13,707 bases of DNA from a virus. The DNA lies in UHGV virus genome UHGV-1773339; one strand, written 5' to 3'. Shown here piece after piece: positions 277 to 10,192 of this stretch; the first letter of the stretch is position 1; each line of letters opens with the position of its first letter. The notes under the pieces were generated by a model. The model searched no databases, was not told the DNA's origin, and saw nothing but the letters and a program-made list of their open reading frames with translations. A program made the translations under genes and the position numbers.

Positions 277-1446
277 ATGTCCTTGAAAAAGTTATTACAA
301 GATTGTGTTACGCGCGGTCAAGAAATGACCCAAGCAATTGCTATAGCTCAATTCGGTGATGATAGTCCTGAAGCTCGGCGTATCACGCGTAGATGGGGGA
401 TAACTGAAGTAGCAGATTTAATTGGTGTAACTCCTCAAGCAATAAGAGATGCTGAGAAGAACGGGCGTTTACCTGCACCTGACTTTGAAATGAGAGGAAG
501 AGTTGAACGTCGTGCCGGTTATACCATAGATCAAATCAATAGTATGCGAGCTGTTTTTGGCAACCCAAACCAACGGCCACAAGATAAAAACCCAGTTGTG
601 CTTGCTGTTATGTCACACAAAGGCGGCGTTTATAAAACATCGTCTGCAGTACATCAGGCACAATGGCTAGCATTACAAGGTCATCGTGTTCTTTTAGTTG
701 AAGGTAACGATCCTCAGGGAACAGCCTCCATGTATCACGGTTATGTACCTGATTTACATATACATGCCGAGGATACTTTACTGCCATTTTACTTGGGCGA
801 ACGCGATAACGCTGAATATGCTATAAAACCAACATGCTGGCCTGGACTGGACATTATTCCTAGCTGCCTAGCTTTACACCGTATAGAAACAGATCTCATG
901 CAATATCATGCTCAGGGTAAATTGCCTCACCCTCCTCACCTGATGCTACGCGCAGCTATAGAATCAGTTTGGGATAACTACGATGTTATCGTTATAGATA
1001 GTGCTCCAAACCTCGGTACAGGAACCATTAACGTTGTTTGCGCAGCTGACGTTATCGTTGTTGCTACCCCTGCAGAATTATTTGATTACGCCTCTGTTCT
1101 ACAGTTTTTCACAATGCTTCTCGATCTCCTAGAAAGCGTTGACCTAGGCGGATTTGAGCCGACCGTTCGCTTGCTTCTGACTAAATATAGTCTCACTACA
1201 GGAAATCAATCACGATGGATGGAAGAGCAAATAAGAAATACATGGGGATCAATGGTATTACGTCAGGTTGTACGCGTTACCGATGAAGTAGGTAAAGGTC
1301 AGATAAAAATGCGAACAGTATTTGAACAAGCGGCAAACCAGCGTTCAACACTTAATGCATGGAGAAATGCCGTCTCTATATGGGACCCTGTTTGTCGAGA
1401 AATTTTTGATGATCTAATAAAACCTCGCTGGGAGAACGAAGAATGA
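277..1446 (+). CDS. sopA: Plasmid partition ATPase SopA (type Ia ParA with N-terminal DNA-binding extension)
   Basis: 389 aa ORF with ATG start and SD. Deviant Walker A box in 'VMSHKGGVYKTS'. The long N-terminal extension before the ATPase core is typical of type Ia ParA/SopA. The translation closely resembles F-plasmid SopA as I recall it. Stop overlaps the next gene start (ATGA). Confidence 0.93.
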   Translation: MSLKKLLQDCVTRGQEMTQAIAIAQFGDDSPEARRITRRWGITEVADLIGVTPQAIRDAEKNGRLPAPDFEMRGRVERRAGYTIDQINSMRAVFGNPNQRPQDKNPVVLAVMSHKGGVYKTSSAVHQAQWLALQGHRVLLVEGNDPQGTASMYHGYVPDLHIHAEDTLLPFYLGERDNAEYAIKPTCWPGLDIIPSCLALHRIETDLMQYHAQGKLPHPPHLMLRAAIESVWDNYDVIVIDSAPNLGTGTINVVCAADVIVVATPAELFDYASVLQFFTMLLDLLESVDLGGFEPTVRLLLTKYSLTTGNQSRWMEEQIRNTWGSMVLRQVVRVTDEVGKGQIKMRTVFEQAANQRSTLNAWRNAVSIWDPVCREIFDDLIKPRWENEE

Positions 1447-2432
1447 AACAACGCTCTCTTCTAAAAAATGCTCCGGATATTAATCGCATTATGAGTAATA
1501 ATCATCATGCACCTGAACATCAGCCGGTATCACCTATGGTTGGTGATTTAAAACGTCAACTGAGTTCATTAACCGGTAATAGCATAACTTTGCCAGTATG
1601 CGGACGTAATGTTAACTTTAAGTTAGAGACGATCCCCGCAGATAAAGTAGAAATGGCAACAATGGTATGGCTAGGTAATGAGCGTGATCAAGATTTATTA
1701 AATGAATCTTCTCTAGCTGATTTAATTCCATCTTTTCTAACTTCTGGGCAACAAAATCCGGCTTTCGCAAGAAAAGTGTCAGGTATTGTTGAAGTAGCTG
1801 ATGGTTCTCGAAGACGTAAAGCAGCCATTATAACTGGATGCGATTATCGTGTTCTTATTGGCGATTTAGATGATGAACAAATGCAATGGTTATCGCAGAT
1901 AGGCAACGACTATAGACCTATCAGCGCCTATGAAAGGGGGAAAAGATACCTGCGAAGGCTCCATGAATTTGACGGTAACGTAAAATCTTTAGCTGAAGCC
2001 GAAGGCGTGGATAGAAATATTATCAGCCGATGTATTAATACAGCCGGTTTACCTAAAGATATATTGGCAATATTTAACCATCCTGGTGAGTTATCAGCCA
2101 GAGCAGGAGACGCTCTTTTTAAAGCATATCAGGGACAGGAAGCAGCCATGAAAAATGCTGCATCTCAGTTGCTGAGGATGAAAAAATCAGGTGAAAGTTT
2201 AGATGCGCAAAGAATAATACAGGCTCTTCATGATTTCATTATTGTTGAGAAAAACAATTCACATGGAGAGAAAAGGGAAAAGAAATATGGAGACGGTGTT
2301 GTGGCGAAATATGGGAAAAATTTCACAACATTAAAATTAGATAACAGAAAAATACCATCGCACCTAATGAGTAAAATTGAATCTATTCTTGAGGAGGCGT
2401 TTGGAAATTCTTCCGATGTAAAAAATAACTAA
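1443..2432 (+). CDS. sopB: Plasmid partition centromere-binding protein SopB (ParB family)
   Basis: 329 aa ORF translationally coupled to sopA (ATGA overlap at 1443-1446). Recognisable SopB/ParB-like stretches (e.g. 'ITLPVCGR', 'GNERDQ', 'DGSRRRKAA', 'GNDYRPISAYERG'). Position immediately after the ParA gene. Ends at TAA 2430-2432. Confidence 0.92.
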   Translation: MKQRSLLKNAPDINRIMSNNHHAPEHQPVSPMVGDLKRQLSSLTGNSITLPVCGRNVNFKLETIPADKVEMATMVWLGNERDQDLLNESSLADLIPSFLTSGQQNPAFARKVSGIVEVADGSRRRKAAIITGCDYRVLIGDLDDEQMQWLSQIGNDYRPISAYERGKRYLRRLHEFDGNVKSLAEAEGVDRNIISRCINTAGLPKDILAIFNHPGELSARAGDALFKAYQGQEAAMKNAASQLLRMKKSGESLDAQRIIQALHDFIIVEKNNSHGEKREKKYGDGVVAKYGKNFTTLKLDNRKIPSHLMSKIESILEEAFGNSSDVKNN

Positions 2433-2448: not shown

Positions 2449-2475
2449 AGACCCCATCAGTTATAGATGGGGTCT
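2449..2475. terminator. Bidirectional intrinsic terminator between convergent sopB and the tail/accessory operon
   Basis: Perfect 10-bp inverted repeat agaccccatc / gatggggtct with a 7-nt loop, followed by a T-rich run on the plus strand (taattttatt) and preceded by an A-rich run (T-rich on the minus strand). Lies between the sopB stop (2432) and the stop of the minus-strand ORF (2481). Confidence 0.7.
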
Positions 2476-2778: not shown

Positions 2779-3483
2779 TTAACCGATATCGCTTCGGGAA
2801 GTTGATAACAGCTTTAATTCTGACTCAAGTTCATCAACTCTTTCTGTCAGTTTCTGGATATGGTGAATCAGTGGAACAACCAGACGTTCGTACATTACAC
2901 CTTCGGCAACAAGGCCATTGCTGGAAATAGCTTCCGGTGCATCATCTTCGTTAGCTGGTCGCCAGTGTACAAACTGAGGGGCAATTTCTCCTACTTCCTC
3001 GGCAATCAATCCGTAGAATCCCCAGTCACGCCTGTCATTTTCGCATTGCGACCTGTACCACACAGGGCGCATCTTGAAAATGAGATCGGCGTGCTCTGAA
3101 TCTATCGTCTCTACTGAATGTTTATAGCGAATAGACGATGTTGACCGCAGCACAGACGAAATTGCGGGGTCAGGATTAAGATAAAGGTTTGCCGCCGCTG
3201 TAGTCGTGCCCAATCCCCATAAATAAAACGCTTCACGGCCAGTCAGCGGGTAAAAATCTCCACCATAATTACCGCTTTCCAGAGCATTCACTTCCAGTTT
3301 GTTTTTCAGCTTATTATCCACTTCAGTTTTTGTGTATCTGGAGCTGATATCCTGCTTTGCACTGGTCATCTCAGTCTGAAGCGTTGATACTTTTCCGCTA
3401 ATTGAGGAAATATCTTCCTTAGCTTTACTGACATCTCCCTTCAGCGTGGTGATATCTCCCGGAATTACTGTCGATGTAGCCAT
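2779..3483 (-). CDS. Coiled-coil protein with C-terminal peptidase-S74-like intramolecular chaperone domain (tail-fibre/tailspike-type auto-processing domain)
   Basis: 234 aa ORF, ATG start preceded by GAGGGAGA SD. C-terminal half shows the S74/chaperone-of-endosialidase pattern: Ser116...Lys121 dyad spacing ('SSIRYK'), 'DWGFYGLIAEEVGEIAPQFV', 'MYERLVVPLIHHIQKL', terminal coiled coil 'VDELESELKLL'. N-terminal 60 residues are heptad-like coiled coil. Confidence 0.75.
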   Translation of the reverse strand: MATSTVIPGDITTLKGDVSKAKEDISSISGKVSTLQTEMTSAKQDISSRYTKTEVDNKLKNKLEVNALESGNYGGDFYPLTGREAFYLWGLGTTTAAANLYLNPDPAISSVLRSTSSIRYKHSVETIDSEHADLIFKMRPVWYRSQCENDRRDWGFYGLIAEEVGEIAPQFVHWRPANEDDAPEAISSNGLVAEGVMYERLVVPLIHHIQKLTERVDELESELKLLSTSRSDIG

Positions 3484-3492
3484 TTGTCTCCC

Positions 3493-3774
3493 TCACATCC
3501 AGCCACGAAGTTGATGTTCAACTACAACCGCGTATTCATCGAATAATGACGGTGTTTTCACATCATTAATGATGCGCACGTTTACAAAATATCCGTCTTC
3601 CTTAACACATACCGGTTCGCCATCTTCATTCAGCTCTCCGGTTTCTTTGTACACGTTTCCTATCACATCAATGAGAACATTGTTCTGCATCACCTCGTCA
3701 TCGTAATAACCAATGCTATCCATAAAGGCCGAAAAGTCGGCCTTGTTTATGAATTTGAGGGTTAAGTCTCGCAT
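3493..3774 (-). CDS. Hypothetical acidic 93 aa protein, translationally coupled to the tail fibre gene
   Basis: ATG start shares one base with the stop of the upstream fibre gene (TAATG at 3772-3776, minus strand). Its stop is 9 nt before the next ORF start. No motif recognised. The position suggests a fibre accessory or assembly factor. Confidence 0.6.
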   Translation of the reverse strand: MRDLTLKFINKADFSAFMDSIGYYDDEVMQNNVLIDVIGNVYKETGELNEDGEPVCVKEDGYFVNVRIINDVKTPSLFDEYAVVVEHQLRGWM

Positions 3775-5981
3775 TATATTCTTTCTCCCATTTGTGCATC
3801 TGTCAGTTCCTTATGCCAGATACGTAAATTGCGCACGTGTCCAAATAAATGCCTGTTACCTGATATTGATTGACCGCCTATATTTATTGGCCCTTCTGTA
3901 TAACGTTGTCTTGTGTGTTGTGATACACCAACAGCGCCAAAGTTACCGTTTATAACAGCACGCAATTCTTTCTGCTCTGTAAACTTAAACCCAGCAATAA
4001 ACCTGCGGGTTGTCCTGTTACAGTAGGCTTTATACTCGGTCTTTGTTCCTTTTCCGTTAGTTATAATTGAGCGCGCGCCTCCAGAGGTAAAACCAAAATA
4101 CATATAACTTTCATCAGCAACATCCGTTGTTGCGCCAGTTATTGACACGTTAAGAAGCCTTGCTGAACCTTCACTGTTTGGCATTTTGTCCCAGTTGATA
4201 TTAACTTCCATAAGAACGCTTAACGGGGGCGTTGACCAGTTCAGTCTTATTGGCATTATTACCACTTCACTAGCCCGTGTAACTGCCACATCTGATGTAA
4301 CGATAAATGATGATGCACACGATCCTTTTTCAAATTGCGGCGTAGTAAACATTATCTGATCGCCTTTTTTGATCGCCCTTTTATCTGCTCCCATTTCAAA
4401 GCGCCCATACATGCTTTTTGCTTCTGGTGATTTATATGTAAATTCGACGCGTAACCATCCGTTAGCTTCTCTGTATATGACATGATTTACAGCATCCCCA
4501 CCAGAAAAACCTAAAACATCACCAGTTTCGCAATCTATGTAGGAACCAGCTACCAGCGTGTTGCTTGTGCCGTCATCGTTAACGAAAGATATTCTGGGTC
4601 TTAACGTTATAATACCTTCTCCATTTATCTTCTTAACCCTACAGGACAAGGTAACAGATTCATTTGCAGCAACATCAATAACCCTACTGTATCCAGTAGA
4701 TATTATCGTCGCCCTTTCAGTGGTTGATGTTTCCTTTACATCGAACAAACCATATTTAAAACCATATTCATCAACCGATGTGGTTATTTCTATATTCTTG
4801 TCGTCATAGTTCCATAATGAAGGATTGTTACTATTAGTAAATGTATTTGTCCTCTGACCTTCAATTAATAAACCTTCCTTTTCAAAGCGCGGCTCGTTAA
4901 TTTCTGCAAAAGCAAATGAACCTGATTTGTTTATATACGTTGCAGAAGTGGAGCGAGTGAAAGATACAACCTTCTCTGATGGAAAAGTAATAACATCATC
5001 ACCGATAGTTACTTTTTTATAACCAGGAGCGAAACCAGTAATCATTTCCAGCGAATCGTTAAATGGTATCCACACATCAGGAAGCGGCTGCAATACTTGT
5101 TTATACGGCTCCGCAGCCTGGCTTGCATACTCTCTGGCTGCATCCTCACTTGCTTTAGCTGCTGTCTGGCTTGCTGCCGATGCTTGCGCCGAGTTCGCCG
5201 CTGCAGTCTCGCTTGTCTTTGCATTGGTTTCACTGGTTTTTGCAGCTTTTTGACTGTTTGCTGATGCAGTGGCAGAAGCAGCCGCCGCACTTGCAGAACC
5301 AGCTGCGGCACTCTCGCTTTCGGCTGCTGCATCCTGACTGCTTTTCGCCGCAGTTTCACTGACTTTGGCATTCGTTTCGCTGGTCTTCGCTGCCGTCTGG
5401 CTGGACTTTGCGTTAGTTTCGCTCGCCTTCGCGGCTGTTTCGCTATTTTTCGCGTTGGTTTCTGATTTTTTGGCTGCTGTCGCGGAGTTTGCCGATGCAG
5501 TCTGCGAGGTCGCTGCCGCCTGTGCGCTGTTAGCTGCATTCGTTTCTGAGGTTTTCGCCGCGTTCTTCGATGAAGCCGCTGCAGTTTCGGATTTCTTTGC
5601 CGCCGCTGCGCTCTGAGAGGCGGCTTCGGCGTTGCGTGCCGCTTCTTCCACCATTGCCTCAAAACGGCGCAATGCCTCCGGCATGACATCATCTTCCGTC
5701 ATGGCACCGAGAAAATCATTCAGCGTACCTGGTCTGGAACCTTCATAGACGGTAATGGTCCCGGCATGTGAAGGCGGAAAACCTTCAACCAGCAGGGTGA
5801 CGCTGTACTGGCCATACTCAACATCCATGCTGTAACGTCCGGCTTCATCCGGATTTTCAGAAGCCACCGTGTTCACCAGTACCGTGGTGCTGTTACGCTT
5901 TGCCTTCAGTTGAATAGTGCAGTTCTGTATTGGTTTTCCCGCACCATCTTTCAGCACACCTGAGATTTTTACTGCTGCCAT
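3774..5981 (-). CDS. stf: Side tail fibre protein: lambda Stf-like N-terminal anchor, Ala-rich repeat stalk, novel distal region
   Basis: Long ORF. The track begins at a GTG (5987), but the ATG at 5981 gives 'MAAVKISGVLKDG...', matching the conserved Stf N-terminus as I recall it, with GGAG SD upstream. Residues about 120-285 are degenerate Ala-rich 'SETNAK/AAKTSE' repeats. The distal ~450 residues are encoded by lower-GC DNA and end in a LamG/concanavalin-like looking motif ('GNRHLFGHVRNLRIWHKELTDAQM'). Confidence 0.85.
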   Translation of the reverse strand: MAAVKISGVLKDGAGKPIQNCTIQLKAKRNSTTVLVNTVASENPDEAGRYSMDVEYGQYSVTLLVEGFPPSHAGTITVYEGSRPGTLNDFLGAMTEDDVMPEALRRFEAMVEEAARNAEAASQSAAAAKKSETAAASSKNAAKTSETNAANSAQAAATSQTASANSATAAKKSETNAKNSETAAKASETNAKSSQTAAKTSETNAKVSETAAKSSQDAAAESESAAAGSASAAAASATASANSQKAAKTSETNAKTSETAAANSAQASAASQTAAKASEDAAREYASQAAEPYKQVLQPLPDVWIPFNDSLEMITGFAPGYKKVTIGDDVITFPSEKVVSFTRSTSATYINKSGSFAFAEINEPRFEKEGLLIEGQRTNTFTNSNNPSLWNYDDKNIEITTSVDEYGFKYGLFDVKETSTTERATIISTGYSRVIDVAANESVTLSCRVKKINGEGIITLRPRISFVNDDGTSNTLVAGSYIDCETGDVLGFSGGDAVNHVIYREANGWLRVEFTYKSPEAKSMYGRFEMGADKRAIKKGDQIMFTTPQFEKGSCASSFIVTSDVAVTRASEVVIMPIRLNWSTPPLSVLMEVNINWDKMPNSEGSARLLNVSITGATTDVADESYMYFGFTSGGARSIITNGKGTKTEYKAYCNRTTRRFIAGFKFTEQKELRAVINGNFGAVGVSQHTRQRYTEGPINIGGQSISGNRHLFGHVRNLRIWHKELTDAQMGERI
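5133..5630 (-). repeat. In-frame degenerate tandem repeats encoding the Ala/Ser/Thr-rich fibre stalk
   Basis: Repeated gc(a/t)gc-rich DNA encoding reiterated KxSETNAK / TAAKxSE units. This generates the spurious Arg-rich and Ala/Phe-rich ORFs seen in other frames and strands. Confidence 0.7.
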
Positions 5982-5990
5982 ATCCACTCC

Positions 5991-6019
5991 ACAAAAAAGC
6001 CCGCCTGAACCGGCGGGCT
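5991..6019 (-). terminator. Intrinsic terminator downstream of lom
   Basis: On the minus strand: stem agcccgcc / ggcgggct with a 6-nt loop, followed immediately by TTTTTT (plus-strand A-run 5993-5998). Sits between the lom stop (6046) and the stf start. Confidence 0.75.
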
Positions 6020-6045
6020 GTCATAACACTGTGTTACCTGGCTAA

Positions 6046-6645
6046 TCAGAATTTATAACCGACACCCACGATGAAACCGTCAGTGCGCCAGTCGCCACTG
6101 CCGGAGCCTTCATAAGCAATATCAATGGCCACGGATTCGGTCGGGTTAAACTGCACGCCAGCTCCCCACGCCAGAGACGTGTTGCTGTGGCGACCGTCAT
6201 CACTTCCGGTCAGCACATCGTGCGTTTTCCCCTTGTTGTCAGTTACGCGGAGATAATCCCCGGAGAACGTCGAAACACGGCTGTAAGCCACACCTGCCAT
6301 CGCATAAGCACTGAACCATTCATTCACGCGTACAGATGGCCCCGCCATCATGCTGAACCAGCGGTTACGCACTGAATCTTCATGCCAGCGGGTATCGCTG
6401 TAATGCGTTTTTTGCTCATCTTTGGCATTGGCATAACTGAATGACGTCACCAGCCCCAGCGTGTCCGTAAATTCATAACGGTATTTCACGTTAATGCCCT
6501 TCAGGTCATCACTGCCTGGCATATCAGTATGGGCCTGAAGATACCCGGCGCTTAGTGTGGACTGATGCTCTGCTGCGCTCGCTGGCGTACCAGCGGCAAC
6601 CAGCCAGACTACTGCGGACAGAATAACAGCACATAATTTACGCAT
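6046..6645 (-). CDS. lom: Outer-membrane beta-barrel protein of the Lom/Ail/PagC/OmpX family
   Basis: 199 aa. N-terminal signal peptide ('...AAGTPASAAEH'), alternating amphipathic beta-strand pattern, C-terminal '...DWRTDGFIVGVGYKF' with terminal Phe typical of OMP barrels. Synteny (directly after J) as in lambda. Confidence 0.9.
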   Translation of the reverse strand: MRKLCAVILSAVVWLVAAGTPASAAEHQSTLSAGYLQAHTDMPGSDDLKGINVKYRYEFTDTLGLVTSFSYANAKDEQKTHYSDTRWHEDSVRNRWFSMMAGPSVRVNEWFSAYAMAGVAYSRVSTFSGDYLRVTDNKGKTHDVLTGSDDGRHSNTSLAWGAGVQFNPTESVAIDIAYEGSGSGDWRTDGFIVGVGYKF

Positions 6646-6669
6646 AATTACCTCTCGCTTTTCTGCAAT

Positions 6670-6693
6670 AAAAAAGGCGTCATTTCTGACGCC
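6670..6693 (-). terminator. Intrinsic terminator downstream of J
   Basis: On the minus strand: stem ggcgtca / tgacgcc with a 4-nt loop, followed by TTTTTTATT. About 20 nt after the J stop and about 25 nt before the lom ATG. Confidence 0.7.
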
Positions 6694-6712
6694 CGTATTG
6701 GGGTTATAAAAT

Positions 6713-9700
6713 TCAGCTGATACTGATGCCTGCGGTGGCTTTCTTCATCACCACAACCAGCAAATCGCTGATACTTGCTGTGGGATACCAGCCATTTACC
6801 CACCATGCTGATACCGAAAACTCCAGTGTCATTACGCCACTGCCTGCAGGCATATCAATAACACCCGTGTAAATCAGAGTATTATCCAGAGCCGTTCGGT
6901 TATAAATTTCAGCCCCGTTTTTCTTCACTATCAGGCGGCATGACGAATAAGTATCGCTATTCTCCCGTTCATGTCTGGCACCGCTGAAAGCCACCGCTGG
7001 AATAACAATTTGCCGGTCAAACGGCTGATCGTCATAAACCCTGACGGTAATGGTCCCTGATGGCCACCGTTCCGGTGCACGGGAGTCCCGGGGGAAAGCT
7101 TTGCCCACTGTTTTAACGAGATCGCCTTCAATCTGGTTCGCGGACAGTTTTCCCAGAACCCGGCAATTCTCGTTAATCGTGACGTTGTTGAGCGTCCCGG
7201 AGTTCGCATTCACGTTACCGCTGATATCGGCATTTTTCGCCGTCAGCCGCCCGTCCGGTGTCAGGGAAAATGCCGGAGGATTACCGCCGCTGGTAATGGT
7301 GGGAGCCGTCAGGTATTTCAGGAACACTTCGTTCATGAATATCTGATCGCCCTGACCAACAAACATCGGCTTTGTGTTGCCATTCGCAGGATTAATCATC
7401 GCAATCCTGTCTGCCGCCAGCAGCACCTGACTCTGCATGCCGTCAGGGGTGTTTTCAATACCGGCACCAATACCCGCGATATAAAGGCGTCCGTCCTGCA
7501 TCTGCTGCAGCTTCACAGCCCACATGCTGTTCAGGTTATTATTTGTATCAACCTGAACCTTCTGTATCTGCTGGATCGCTGCACTCTGGTCTTCCAGTTT
7601 CTTATTGACGGTCTGCGTGATTTCATTACTGACATCCGTGATGGACGTTCTGATTTCCGCCAGGTCAGGCGCAAGCTGACCGTTATCAATCTGCGTCCAC
7701 AGCTCCTGAGCCAGATGGGTTTTCCCTATCTCTCCTTTGAAAAAATCCAGATAGCCGGATGCATCATCACTCGGCTGGCCAACAGCCTCCACGAATGCCG
7801 ATTTGCCAACGGTGTTCACACTGCGGATGTAAAAATAATAATCATGGCCCGGCTTGATATTGATACTGGCAGCTATCCAGTACAGCGCCGTGCCAAGATA
7901 GCGGGCTGTGGTTTCAACCTGCCTGATATCCGCAATCCGTTTTTCCGAGAACCAGAACTCAAACTGTACCGTCGGGTCATAAACCGCAAGATGCGGCGTG
8001 GCGGTTATCTGAAAATAGCCCGGCGTCAGCTCAATCCGCGACGGCGCTGCCGGTGCGGCAATCCGGAACGATACCGACGCCGGATCGCCCTGCTGCCCCC
8101 AGGCATTTGCCGCCCGGACTGTCAGCCTGTAGTTTCCCAACGCCAGTTGCGTGAAGCGGTATGTGGTTTCCGTCGTCCGGGCCGTGCTGACCAGCCGCTC
8201 ACTGCCGTCATCCGCTGCCACGGTCAGGCGAAGCATAAAGCTCACGCCCTTCACCACCTTCGGCGTGTCCCAGCGCGCCAGCACCTGGTATTCCCCGCTG
8301 TCTGCGGTGACTTCGGCGGTCAGGTGCTGCACCGCTGGCGGCGTGACACCATTCACCGTGCCGCTCTGGTCGCCGTCAAAGTGCGCCCCGTTATCCACGA
8401 TGGCTTCTTTTTCCGGTACATGCTGCACGGCAGTGATGGCATACGTGCCGTCGTCGTTCTCACGGATACTCACGCAGCGGAACAGGCGCTGGCGCAGCGT
8501 CGGCAGCTTCAGCCCCCACACGCTGTATTCTGCAACGCCGTCAGGAACCCGGCTCACTTTCACCTTCACGCCGTCGGTGACGGACTGGACCTCCACGCTG
8601 ACCGGATTGCCACTTCCGTCAACCAGGCTTATCAGCGTGGTGCCGGAGGATGGCAGCGTGATTTCACGGTCGAGCGTCAGCGTCCGGGTCTGGCTGTTCA
8701 CAGCCAGCACGCGCCCGCCGATGCTGATACCGGCATAGTCATCATCGCAGATTTCAATGACATCGCCCGGTACATGGCGAAGCCCTTCAGCACCCACGCT
8801 GAAGTCCACGGTCTGCGTTTCCAGCAGTTCCGTTTTAATCAGCCACAGCCCGGCGCGGTGTGCCTGCCCCCGGCTGGTACAGCCAAAGGCATCCATCTTC
8901 GTGACGTTACGACCGTAACGGGCAATGGCCTGCGTATCTTCAACAAGCTCTGTCGCCGTCTCCCAGCCGTTATTCGGGTCAATCCAGTTCACCTCAACGG
9001 CATTATGGCGGTCCTTCAGGGCGCTGAAACTGTAGCGGAACGGCGCGCCATCATCCGGCATCACCACATTACTGCGGTTATAGGTCCACACCTTATCCGA
9101 CGGTCGGTCCTGCACGAACGTCAGCGTCTGCCCGTTCCATACCGGCATACAGCGCATCGCCGAGCAGAAATCACTGAGCACATCCCACGCCTTGCGCTGT
9201 GTGGTCAGGTACGCATTACAGGTGATGCGCGGCTCCGTGCCGCCAAAGCCGTCCGGCACTGACTGGTCGCAGTACTGGCCGATGACATACAGCGCCCATT
9301 TATCCACATCCGCCGCACCAAGACGTTTCCCCATGCCGTAGCGCGGGTGGGTCAGCATATCCCACAGACACCAGGCCATGTTGTTGCTGTATGCCGGTTT
9401 AAACGTTCCGTCCCAGATACCGCTGTATTGCCGCGTCTGCGGGTTATAATTCGACGGCACCTGCAGAATACGCCCGCGCAGATGATAATTACGGCTCACC
9501 TGCTGGCTGCCGAACTGCTCCGAGTCCACCTGCACGCCGACCAGTGCCGTGTTCGGGTAGCACTGTTTCACATCGATGATTTCGGTGTATGACGACCAGA
9601 GCGTTTTGTTCTGCAGCTGGTCTGTGGTGCTGTCCGGCGTCATCCTGCGCATCCGTATATTGAACGGGCGCGGCGGCAGGTTATCCACCACCACCGAGGC

Positions 9701-10192
9701 CAGATACTGCGAGGTGGTTTTGCCCTTAATGGTGATGTCTTTTTCCGTCACCCAGCCACCGTTACGCTGTATCTGAACCAGCAGTCGGACCTCCGACGGA
9801 TTCCTGTCACCCTTTGAGGTGGTTTCCACCAGTGCCTGTACACCGAAGGTAAAGCGCAGACGGTCGATGTTTGCCGACGTGATGGTCCGGGTGATCGGCG
9901 TGTCATATTTCACTTCCGTACCCAGCACCGTCTCGGAGCCGGAGGATTCAAATCCCTCCGGCGGTGTCTGCTCCTGCTCACCTGCCCGGAAAACCACCGT
10001 GACACCGGAGATATTGGTATTCCCCTCACTGTCCAGCACTGGCGTACTGTTCAGCAGCACGCTTTTTAATCCATCCACCGGACCTTCAACCGGCCCTTCG
10101 CTGATGGCATCGATCACACTCAGCAACTGCGTGGACTTCAGGTTGTCCTTCGCTTCGCGCGGGGTATGCCCCTTACTGCTGCCTTTACCCAT
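6713..10192 (-). CDS. J: Tail tip / host specificity protein J (central tail fibre)
   Basis: 1159 aa ORF with ATG start, N-terminus '[20 protein letters not shown]' as in lambda gpJ. Size and position after I match the lambda order. The final ~1 kb of the gene has lower GC, as expected for a receptor-binding region. Confidence 0.95.

What the first reader, a model, noticed from the sequence alone, without database searches (positions are those of the whole stretch)
5991..6693. lom-type outer-membrane protein gene insulated by intrinsic terminators on both sides
The Lom/Ail/PagC-family gene lies between two clean hairpin-plus-U-run terminators (after J at 6670-6693 and after lom at 5991-6019) with only ~25 nt between the upstream terminator and its ATG. 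This implies either read-through from the late operon or an internal promoter within the 3' end of J. Lom-family morons are expressed in lysogens and linked to adhesion and serum resistance, so the regulatory arrangement is worth defining.
Basis: partly seen in the sequence, partly recalled or inferred. Interest (0 to 1): 0.4.

Follow-up and report, generated by a model that had tools for sequence, protein, structure and literature searches.

The report
Lambda-type lom gene between two terminators
The two terminator hairpins flanking the lom outer-membrane gene are real and conserved, but this is the same J-lom-stf layout as phage lambda and occurs in most E. coli genomes, so it is ordinary.

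Summary
On the minus strand, a hairpin plus T-run lies after J (6694-6670). A second lies after lom (6019-5993). With the bidirectional hairpin at 2449-2475, these are the only strict terminator-like sites in the window (4 hits against 0.4 expected).

The J-lom hairpin is under selection. All 175 related loci have it at the same place, in 23 versions, with compensatory and G·U changes.

The arrangement is not new. Lambda has hairpins at both positions, and the segment occurs in 4,710 of 5,426 complete E. coli genomes. The N15 and HK97 records already annotate terminators around accessory genes in their late operons.

The window comes from an N15-like linear phage-plasmid. Its closest complete relative encodes a Q antiterminator. 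The tail-fibre gene stf starts 11 nt after the second T-run. Late transcription must therefore read through both terminators, as in lambda.

A conserved promoter inside the 3' end of J is not supported. The candidates score within the chance range and are not conserved, and 24 nt is too short to hold a promoter. How lom is transcribed in lysogens remains open, as it does for lambda.

Interest is low.

The parts
6713..10192 (-). J, the tail-tip host-specificity gene. It is the last essential tail gene upstream of lom.
   Evidence: ORF. Pfam Phage-tail_3, Ig_J, FNIII-A_GpJ, Ig_GpJ_C and Phage_Tail_Tip. The C-terminal 299 aa match solved lambda-type gpJ chains.
6667..6694 (-). Intrinsic-terminator-like element t(J-lom). 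Stem 6694-6687 pairs with 6682-6675, GAAA loop at 6686-6683, T-run 6675-6670 followed by ATT.
   Evidence: Present in all 175 related loci in 23 versions. In the 19 gap-free versions counted, 95.4% of cells are paired and 3 of 8 pairs show compensatory changes. d-score about 24-31, similar to a trp-type control.
6703..6708 (-). TATAAC, a -10-like hexamer just after the J stop codon. It lies in the semi-conserved block TTTAT[AT]AACCC and has no -35 partner. It is a speculative promoter element only.
   Evidence: Read from the sequence. Conserved in most non-lambda variants but altered in several, and absent in lambda.
6651..6656 (-). Shine-Dalgarno sequence GAGAGG of lom, 5 nt before the ATG.
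   Evidence: Sequence. Present in lambda and in most of the lom-upstream versions listed; a subset of the 207-aa Lom class has AAAGAGG instead.
6046..6645 (-). lom, an Ail/Lom-family outer-membrane beta-barrel protein of 199 aa.
   Evidence: Pfam PF06316, E=6e-128, 424.8 bits. 46% identical to lambda Lom. Matches solved Lom (9wso), OmpX and Ail chains. Translation shows an N-terminal signal-like segment and a C-terminal GYKF.
6023..6037 (-). Small A/U-rich hairpin (GUAAC-ACAGU-GUUAU) in the lom 3' untranslated region, just before the terminator.
   Evidence: Centroid fold. The sequence block is conserved with lambda.
5991..6019 (-). Intrinsic-terminator-like element t(lom-stf). Stem 6019-6012 pairs with 6005-5998, loop GGTTCA, T-run 5998-5993.
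   Evidence: Nearly identical in lambda. Present in most related loci. d-score about 34-43. A sub-threshold Rfam Trp_leader hit reflects the trp-type terminator shape.
3774..5981 (-). stf, the side tail fibre gene. Its SD (GGAG, 5990-5987) directly follows the T-run, and its ATG is 11 nt after the T-run.
   Evidence: Pfam phage_tail_N, 8.9e-67. Solved tail-fibre N-terminus 9e7m. Sequence.
2449..2475 (.). Bidirectional 10-bp hairpin at the end of the tail-fibre cluster, facing the convergent parB gene.
   Evidence: N15 has an annotated terminator at the equivalent place.

Best explanation
This is the standard lambda-type J-lom-stf junction. It is carried here by an N15-like linear phage-plasmid. 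lom is an accessory (moron-type) outer-membrane gene that sits inside the late tail operon.

It is bracketed by two genuine Rho-independent terminators on the coding strand.

During lytic growth, RNA polymerase modified by the phage Q antiterminator ignores both terminators. It therefore transcribes J, lom, stf and the distal fibre genes as one late transcript. This step is inferred from the lambda paradigm and from the anatomy.

In the repressed prophage there is no Q. The first terminator then stops stray transcription that starts in the roughly 20-kb late operon. The second terminator ends any lom transcript before it reaches stf. This step is also inferred.

The sequence shows no conserved sigma-70 promoter for lom. 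Expression of this type of lom in lysogens is probably low. It would come from weak or conditional initiation upstream plus partial read-through of the first terminator.
For: - Anatomy and statistics of the two terminators.
- Selection on the first hairpin as an RNA structure: 175 of 175 loci have it, in 23 versions. Compensatory G-C to A-U and C-G to U-A changes occur, with G·U intermediates. In the 19 gap-free versions counted, 95.4% of cells are paired, and 0 of 500 shuffles reach the covariation score. Sliding the partners destroys the pairing.
- Lambda has hairpin plus T-run at both homologous positions. The second is almost identical; the first has a different stem.
- stf starts 11 nt after the second T-run. 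This leaves no room for a promoter, so late polymerase must read through.
- The 99%-identical relative PhiR46_1 encodes a Q antiterminator, PF06323, 2.3e-84.
- The N15 and HK97 GenBank records already annotate rho-independent terminators and 'moron' genes inside their late operons.
- The segment is present in 4,710 of 5,426 complete E. coli genomes.
- Literature: lambda lom is reported as transcribed in lysogens (PMC1151598, PMC7067206). It was undetected in another study, which notes that little is known about the lom promoter (PMC2147009).
Against: - No transcription data exist for this element. Termination efficiency and Q-dependent read-through are inferred, not shown.
- The Q gene is not in the window. 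It is seen only in the nearest complete relative.
- lom does not differ in GC content from its immediate neighbours, so one classical moron hallmark is missing.
- No promoter was found. The model does not say how lom is expressed in lysogens.
Confidence: 0.8

Rival explanations
1. A sigma-70 promoter inside the 3' end of J drives lom in lysogens, and part of the polymerase reads through the J-lom terminator. It is compatible with the main model for lytic growth.
For: Weak sigma-70-like matches lie at 6906/6883-6878 (TTTATA-17-AATACT, 8.7 bits) and at 6858/6836-6831 (TTGATA-16-CGTAAT, 8.2 bits). The TTGATA/TTGACA hexamer is conserved, including in lambda. The papers read here cite earlier work that lambda lom is transcribed in lysogens, and an array study detected it (PMC1151598), so some start site must exist upstream.
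Against: The scores are within the chance range. The top 15 minus-strand sites in the window score 9.1-11.1 bits, and about 0.5 sites of this strength are expected in 330 nt. The -10 parts vary (CGTAAT, TCACAT, AAACGT) and most lack the key A at position 2. The conserved TTGATA hexamer falls in the conserved J peptide VIDMPAG. The consensus scan found nothing on this strand. A predicted strong terminator lies between these sites and lom.
Confidence: 0.25
2. The J-lom hairpin is part of the lom mRNA leader. A -10-only promoter at the J stop codon (TATAAC, 6708-6703) would start transcription about 2 nt before the hairpin. The hairpin would then act as an attenuator and as a 5'-terminal stabilising stem-loop, as in the ompA mRNA.
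For: The block TTTAT[AT]AACCC just upstream of the hairpin is kept across J variants with different stop-codon contexts. A few variants have TGTTATAAC, which is an extended -10 shape (L179, L189). An IS insertion in L073 leaves the hairpin-lom unit intact.
Against: There is no -35, and the hexamer lacks the conserved final T. Several variants alter it (TTTAAC, CATAAC, TATAGC), and lambda has nothing comparable. The block may be conserved only through recent common ancestry. A transcript starting there would mostly terminate after about 30 nt.
Confidence: 0.1
3. The hairpins act mainly as RNA processing or stability barriers within the long late transcript. They would protect the J and lom segments from 3' exonucleases rather than stop polymerase.
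For: Selection is on RNA pairing, which does not by itself distinguish termination from 3'-end protection. Q-modified polymerase would not terminate there in lytic growth.
Against: The invariant T-run directly after every stem version is the specific signature of intrinsic termination. It is not needed for a stability hairpin. The two roles are not exclusive.
Confidence: 0.15
4. The inverted repeats are chance features or DNA-level palindromes, such as protein-binding or recombination sites, and not RNA elements.
For: One variant has the loop inverted (L171). IS elements or rearrangements hit this spot in L073 and L167.
Against: The strict scan gives 4 hits against 0.4 expected. G·U pairs occur on the coding strand only and would be C·A mismatches on the other strand. 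The stem sequence varies freely while the pairing is kept. No terminator-like site is found on the opposite strand.
Confidence: 0.03

Closest known systems
Phage lambda J-lom-stf (orf-401) junction, NC_001416 18903-19650
   Same: Same gene order. Hairpin plus T-run in both intergenic gaps. The lom 3' end, the second terminator and the stf start are about 90% identical in DNA. The SD GAGAGG lies before lom.
   Different: Lom is only 46% identical in protein. The first hairpin has a different and weaker stem in lambda (6 bp, d about 9, against 8 bp, d about 24-31). The host replicon here is an N15-like linear plasmid prophage, not an integrating lambda.
Morons of lambdoid phages, for example HK97 gp22/gp23 and the N15 genes 22-24 (cor) block
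   Same: An accessory gene is inserted in the late tail operon and is bounded by annotated rho-independent terminators. The gene is absent from the same position in related phages.
   Different: The textbook moron has an upstream sigma-70 promoter and deviant GC content. Here no promoter is detectable, a terminator sits where the promoter would be, and the GC content is not distinct.
lom of the short-tailed Stx phage Phi24B (HM208303)
   Same: An Ail/Lom-family gene with a hairpin plus T-run downstream. The sequence TTTTTTATTGC follows the stem there too.
   Different: Upstream there is a 90-nt A/T-rich spacer with no hairpin. It has weak promoter-like sites of about 8-9 bits, no stronger than those upstream of lom in the window. 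Expression there is reported as constitutive and uncoupled from induction (PMC3342100). It is not adjacent to a J gene.
Q-antiterminated late operon of lambda
   Same: A co-oriented late gene train is interrupted by intrinsic terminators that must be read through. A Q homologue is present in the nearest complete relative.
   Different: The late promoter and its Q-utilisation site lie outside the window and were not examined.

Membership tests
Ail/Lom outer-membrane protein family (Pfam PF06316) | Full-length match to the family HMM above the gathering score | tested here: met
   424.8 bits against a cut-off of 23, E=6e-128, residues 1-199 on profile positions 1-199.
Ail/Lom outer-membrane protein family (Pfam PF06316) | N-terminal signal peptide and a C-terminal aromatic beta-signal, typical of small 8-stranded barrels | tested here: met
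   The translation starts MRKLCAVILSAVVWLVAAGTPASA and ends GVGYKF. By sequence it is homologous to solved Lom (9wso), OmpX (1qj8) and Ail (3qra). The fold itself was not modelled.
Intrinsic (Rho-independent) terminator | G+C-rich stem of 5-14 bp with a short loop | tested here: met
   Both have 8 pairs (5 and 7 G-C) and loops of 4 and 6 nt. Hairpin dG is -13.0 and -17.6 kcal/mol.
Intrinsic (Rho-independent) terminator | U-tract immediately 3' of the stem, on the transcribed strand, downstream of a stop codon | tested here: met
   TTTTTT follows each stem directly. The first stem starts 18 nt after the J stop and the second 26 nt after the lom stop. Both are detected on the coding strand only.
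Intrinsic (Rho-independent) terminator | Pairing maintained by compensatory change in relatives | tested here: met
   t(J-lom): 3 of 8 pairs have changes on both sides, 95.4% of cells are paired, and 0 of 500 shuffles reach the covariation score. t(lom-stf) varies little and its conservation is mostly plain identity.
Intrinsic (Rho-independent) terminator | Measured termination of E. coli RNA polymerase | not testable with these tools
   Needs in vitro transcription or Term-seq.
Moron (accessory transcription unit in a lambdoid late operon) | Extra gene absent from the same position in related phages | tested here: met
   HK97 goes from J straight to stf. N15 has genes 22-24 instead of lom.
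Moron (accessory transcription unit in a lambdoid late operon) | Own downstream terminator | tested here: met
   t(lom-stf), 6019-5993.
Moron (accessory transcription unit in a lambdoid late operon) | Own upstream promoter | tested here: inconclusive
   No sigma-70-like site above the chance level, and none conserved. The 24 nt between the T-run and the ATG cannot hold a promoter. Activator-dependent or weak promoters cannot be excluded.
Moron (accessory transcription unit in a lambdoid late operon) | Base composition different from flanking genes | tested here: not met
   lom has GC 0.53-0.56. The 3' third of J has 0.47-0.53 and the 5' part of stf has 0.52-0.56.
Moron (accessory transcription unit in a lambdoid late operon) | Expression from the repressed prophage | not testable with these tools
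   For lambda lom the reports are mixed: stated as known and seen on arrays in PMC1151598, listed as expressed in PMC7067206, not detected in PMC2147009.
Q-antiterminated late operon | Q-family antiterminator encoded by the phage | tested here: met
   Q is not in the window. In PhiR46_1 (99.1% identical over 5900-6800), the ORF at 9454-10164 matches PF06323 at 2.3e-84 and phrog_304.
Q-antiterminated late operon | Late structural genes located behind intrinsic terminators without a promoter of their own | tested here: met
   The stf SD abuts the T-run and its ATG is 11 nt after it.

The most novel reading that the evidence does not exclude
The J-lom 'terminator' may be a dual-purpose leader element. 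A -10-only promoter at the J stop codon (TATAAC, 6708-6703) would start the lom mRNA just before the hairpin. The hairpin would then throttle transcription as an attenuator and also protect the 5' end of the transcripts that escape. This would give the low and variable Lom expression reported for lambda lysogens.
Probability: 0.08. Interest if true: 0.35.

Novelty: already known. Interest (0 to 1): 0.12.

Why it matters
It matters little beyond annotation. The locus is a textbook example of an accessory gene embedded in an antiterminated late operon. One genuine but old gap remains: nobody appears to have mapped the promoter of lambda-type lom. The comparative data narrow that question. They argue against a conserved promoter inside J, and they show that the upstream hairpin is selected as an RNA structure. 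Because this junction sits in about 87% of complete E. coli genomes, often in several copies, a single 5'-end and 3'-end mapping experiment would settle the question for thousands of prophages.

Tried and rejected
- Rfam: no family at gathering score in the whole window. Only sub-threshold terminator-shaped hits (Trp_leader, RyhB) at the lom terminator.
- PhoP-box and sigma-S/sigma-E-like motifs were looked for by eye upstream of lom. Nothing convincing was found, and this was not pursued.
- K-12 Rac lomR as a source of expression data was rejected. The J-lom junction is deleted there, and the low-expression entry in PMC10392735 refers to the fragment downstream of IS5.
- The 24B_1 small RNA of Phi24B (PMC4426718) was rejected. 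It lies in a 428-bp lom-downstream region that lambda lacks according to that paper, and the window has the lambda-type 64-nt gap.
- 'The hairpin travels with lom, not with J' was weakened. The two loci with non-J upstream DNA are an IS insertion (L073) and an unidentified rearrangement (L167).
- A literature search for the old lambda t'J terminator work found nothing in the held library. My recollection of that work is unverified and is not used as evidence.
- The ribosome-profiling paper on lambda (PMC3718152) is not held.
- The partner chains of PDB 9wso were sought through J and Stf queries and not found.

Full report
**Observation**

All the relevant genes read on the minus strand. They are J (10192..6713), lom (6645..6046; Pfam Ail_Lom, E=6e-128) and stf (5981..3774; phage_tail_N, 8.9e-67).

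The first terminator-like element starts 18 nt after the J stop codon. Its stem-loop is GGGCGTCA-GAAA-TGACGCCT (6694-6675), followed directly by TTTTTTATT.

The second element starts 26 nt after the lom stop codon. Its stem-loop is AGCCCGCC-GGTTCA-GGCGGGCT (6019-5998), followed by TTTTTTG.

I applied a stricter definition: at least 8 pairs, at least 5 G-C pairs, and at least 5 T in the next 8 bases. The window then has four hits at three places. These are the two lom-flanking sites and a bidirectional hairpin at 2449-2475. Two hundred dinucleotide shuffles gave 0.4 +/- 0.8 hits.

The J-lom spacer folds far better than shuffles (z = -3.6). I also computed a d'Aubenton-Carafa-type score. The formula is recalled from memory and uses modern energy parameters, so the values are approximate. 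Both elements score 24-43, about the same as a trp-type control terminator at 30. Lambda's J-lom hairpin scores about 9.

**Source of the window**

- The 901 bases around lom are 99.1% identical to Escherichia phage PhiR46_1.
- That phage has annotated telL and telR ends, a protelomerase, parA/parB and a Q antiterminator.
- The window itself carries parA and parB at 277-2432 on the plus strand.
- The gene order matches N15: J, accessory genes, tail fibre, terminator, parB, parA.
- The window therefore comes from an N15-like linear phage-plasmid that carries a lambda-type lom-stf module.

**Comparative evidence**

Lambda has a hairpin plus T-run at both homologous positions.
- The second hairpin lies in a block about 90% identical to the window.
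- The first has a different stem, CGTCCG-GGAA-CGGGCG, followed by TTTTATT.

I collected 175 loci with an intact lom after J from IMG/VR and GTDB genomes.
- Every one has a hairpin plus T-run immediately upstream of the lom ribosome-binding site.
- The hairpin occurs in 23 distinct versions.
- Stem positions change in a compensatory way: GCGTCA/TGACGC, GCGCCA/TGGCGC, GCACCA/TGGTGC and GCACCTC/GAGGTGC.
- Some versions have G·U intermediates on the coding strand.
- On the 19 gap-free versions, 95.4% of cells pair and 3 of 8 pairs carry changes on both sides.
- None of 500 shuffles reaches the observed covariation score. Sliding the 3' partner by 1-3 columns drops pairing to 36-59%.

The T-run is retained in every version. 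The first hairpin is therefore selected as an RNA structure with a U-tract, which is the signature of an intrinsic terminator.

The second terminator is conserved mostly by identity.

**How common it is**

- The 781-base junction matches 15,102 places in 4,710 of 5,426 complete E. coli genomes.
- The GenBank records of N15 and HK97 already annotate 'putative rho-independent terminators' and 'moron products' inside their late operons.

**Mechanism**

The stf Shine-Dalgarno sequence abuts the T-run of the lom terminator. The stf ATG lies 11 nt after that T-run.

stf is a late structural gene with no room for its own promoter. It can therefore be expressed only by polymerase that reads through both terminators. 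The lambda paradigm is Q-mediated antitermination of the late transcript. This is established knowledge and was not tested here. The nearest complete relative encodes a Q protein (PF06323, 2.3e-84).

In the repressed prophage there is no Q. I infer the following.
- The first terminator blocks stray transcription arriving from the late operon.
- The second terminator keeps any lom transcript from running into stf.

**The lom promoter**

The consensus scan finds no sigma-70-like site on the minus strand between 6650 and 7100.

A position-weight scan (matrices approximated from memory) gives 8.7 and 8.2 bits for the best two candidates inside J.
- The top 15 minus-strand sites in the window reach 9.1-11.1 bits.
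- About 0.5 sites of the candidates' strength are expected per 330 nt.
- The -10 parts of these candidates vary among relatives and are absent in lambda.
- J variants with quite different C-terminal domains keep the same hairpin-lom junction.

The 24 nt between the T-run and the ATG hold only the ribosome-binding site. The best site there (TTTATT-17-AATTAT) would start transcription inside lom.

A -10-like TATAAC sits just after the J stop codon (6708-6703), within the semi-conserved block TTTAT[AT]AACCC. It has no -35 partner, lacks the final T, is altered in several variants and is absent in lambda.

So a conserved promoter in J is not supported. The source of lom transcription in lysogens stays open.

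The literature read here agrees that the question is open.
- lom is listed as expressed in lambda lysogens (PMC1151598, PMC7067206, PMC3594210).
- It was not detected in one array study, whose authors say that little is known about the lom promoter (PMC2147009).

The unrelated lom of the podovirus Phi24B is built differently.
- It has a 90-nt A/T-rich upstream spacer without a hairpin.
- It is reported to be expressed independently of induction (PMC3342100).

**Other checks**

- Rfam finds no family.
- lom is not compositionally distinct from its immediate neighbours, so that moron hallmark is not met.
- Lom is 46% identical to lambda Lom. It matches a solved Lom chain (9wso) as well as OmpX and Ail.

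**Verdict**

The arrangement is the well-known lambda one and is nearly ubiquitous in E. coli prophages.

The 'promoter within J' option has no sequence support.

Novelty: already known. Interest: low.

Noticed in passing
window 277-2432 (+), and the whole window: The window is from an N15-like linear phage-plasmid, not an integrated lambda. ParA (AAA_31/CbiA) and ParB (SopB_HTH) genes lie next to the tail-fibre cluster. The 99%-identical relative PhiR46_1 has telL/telR ends, a protelomerase and a Q gene.
   Followed up: yes
window 2449-2475: A 10-bp bidirectional hairpin lies between the convergent parB gene and the last tail-fibre-cluster ORF. N15 has an annotated terminator at the equivalent place. 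Its T-runs are weak on both strands (d-score below 0).
   Followed up: partly
window 5981-5998: The stf start codon is only 11 nt after the T-run of the lom terminator, and its SD (GGAG) abuts the T-run. stf therefore depends entirely on terminator read-through.
   Followed up: yes
L091-L101 (GTDB genome contigs): Lambda J-lom-stf DNA, identical or near-identical to lambda over the stretches compared, appears in contigs of unrelated assemblies. Several of these contigs are labelled at about 1x coverage. The assemblies include Neobacillus, Kitasatospora, Leeuwenhoekiella, Pseudomonas, Shewanella, Desulfosporosinus and Bradyrhizobium. This most likely reflects lambda DNA contamination of sequencing libraries.
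   Followed up: no
L171, L073, L167 (IMG/VR loci), just upstream of lom: L171 has the hairpin loop inverted (TTTC instead of GAAA). In L073 an IS3-type transposase gene ends right before the hairpin. In L167 a rearrangement removes most of the left arm. The palindrome seems to be a hotspot for rearrangement.
   Followed up: partly
window 6665-6675; L195 6038-6050 (N15); L199 2595-2606 (Phi24B): The same 11-mer, TTTTTTATTGC, follows three different terminator stems. These are t(J-lom) here, the N15 terminator before tail-fibre gene 25, and the Phi24B lom terminator. The 11-mer occurs once in the window against 0.02 expected.
   Followed up: partly
L199 2575-2606 (Phi24B, downstream of lom): A clear hairpin plus T-run (ACCCGC-TGTGAT-GGCGGGT TTTTTAT) follows the Phi24B lom gene. 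PMC4426718 reports that ARNold found no Rho-independent terminator in this region.
   Followed up: no
window 5960-6140 compared with lambda (L002 1000-1180): There is a mosaic joint inside the lom 3' end. The last ~25 codons of lom, the terminator and the stf start are about 90% identical to lambda at the DNA level, while Lom overall is only 46% identical in protein. Sharp GC shifts at about 7900 (within J) and about 5000 (within stf) mark further module boundaries.
   Followed up: partly
window 6046-6645 (Lom protein): The PDB holds a solved chain named 'Outer membrane protein lom' (9wso_C, 206 aa, E=7e-50). The other chains of that entry could not be identified; they are not J or Stf by sequence search.
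   Followed up: partly
window 2779-3483 (-): This 234-aa ORF has a C-terminal Peptidase_S74 (intramolecular chaperone) domain and matches the C-termini of long tail-fibre families. The corresponding ORF in PhiR46_1 is longer (1041 nt), so the distal fibre module differs between these otherwise near-identical phages.
   Followed up: no
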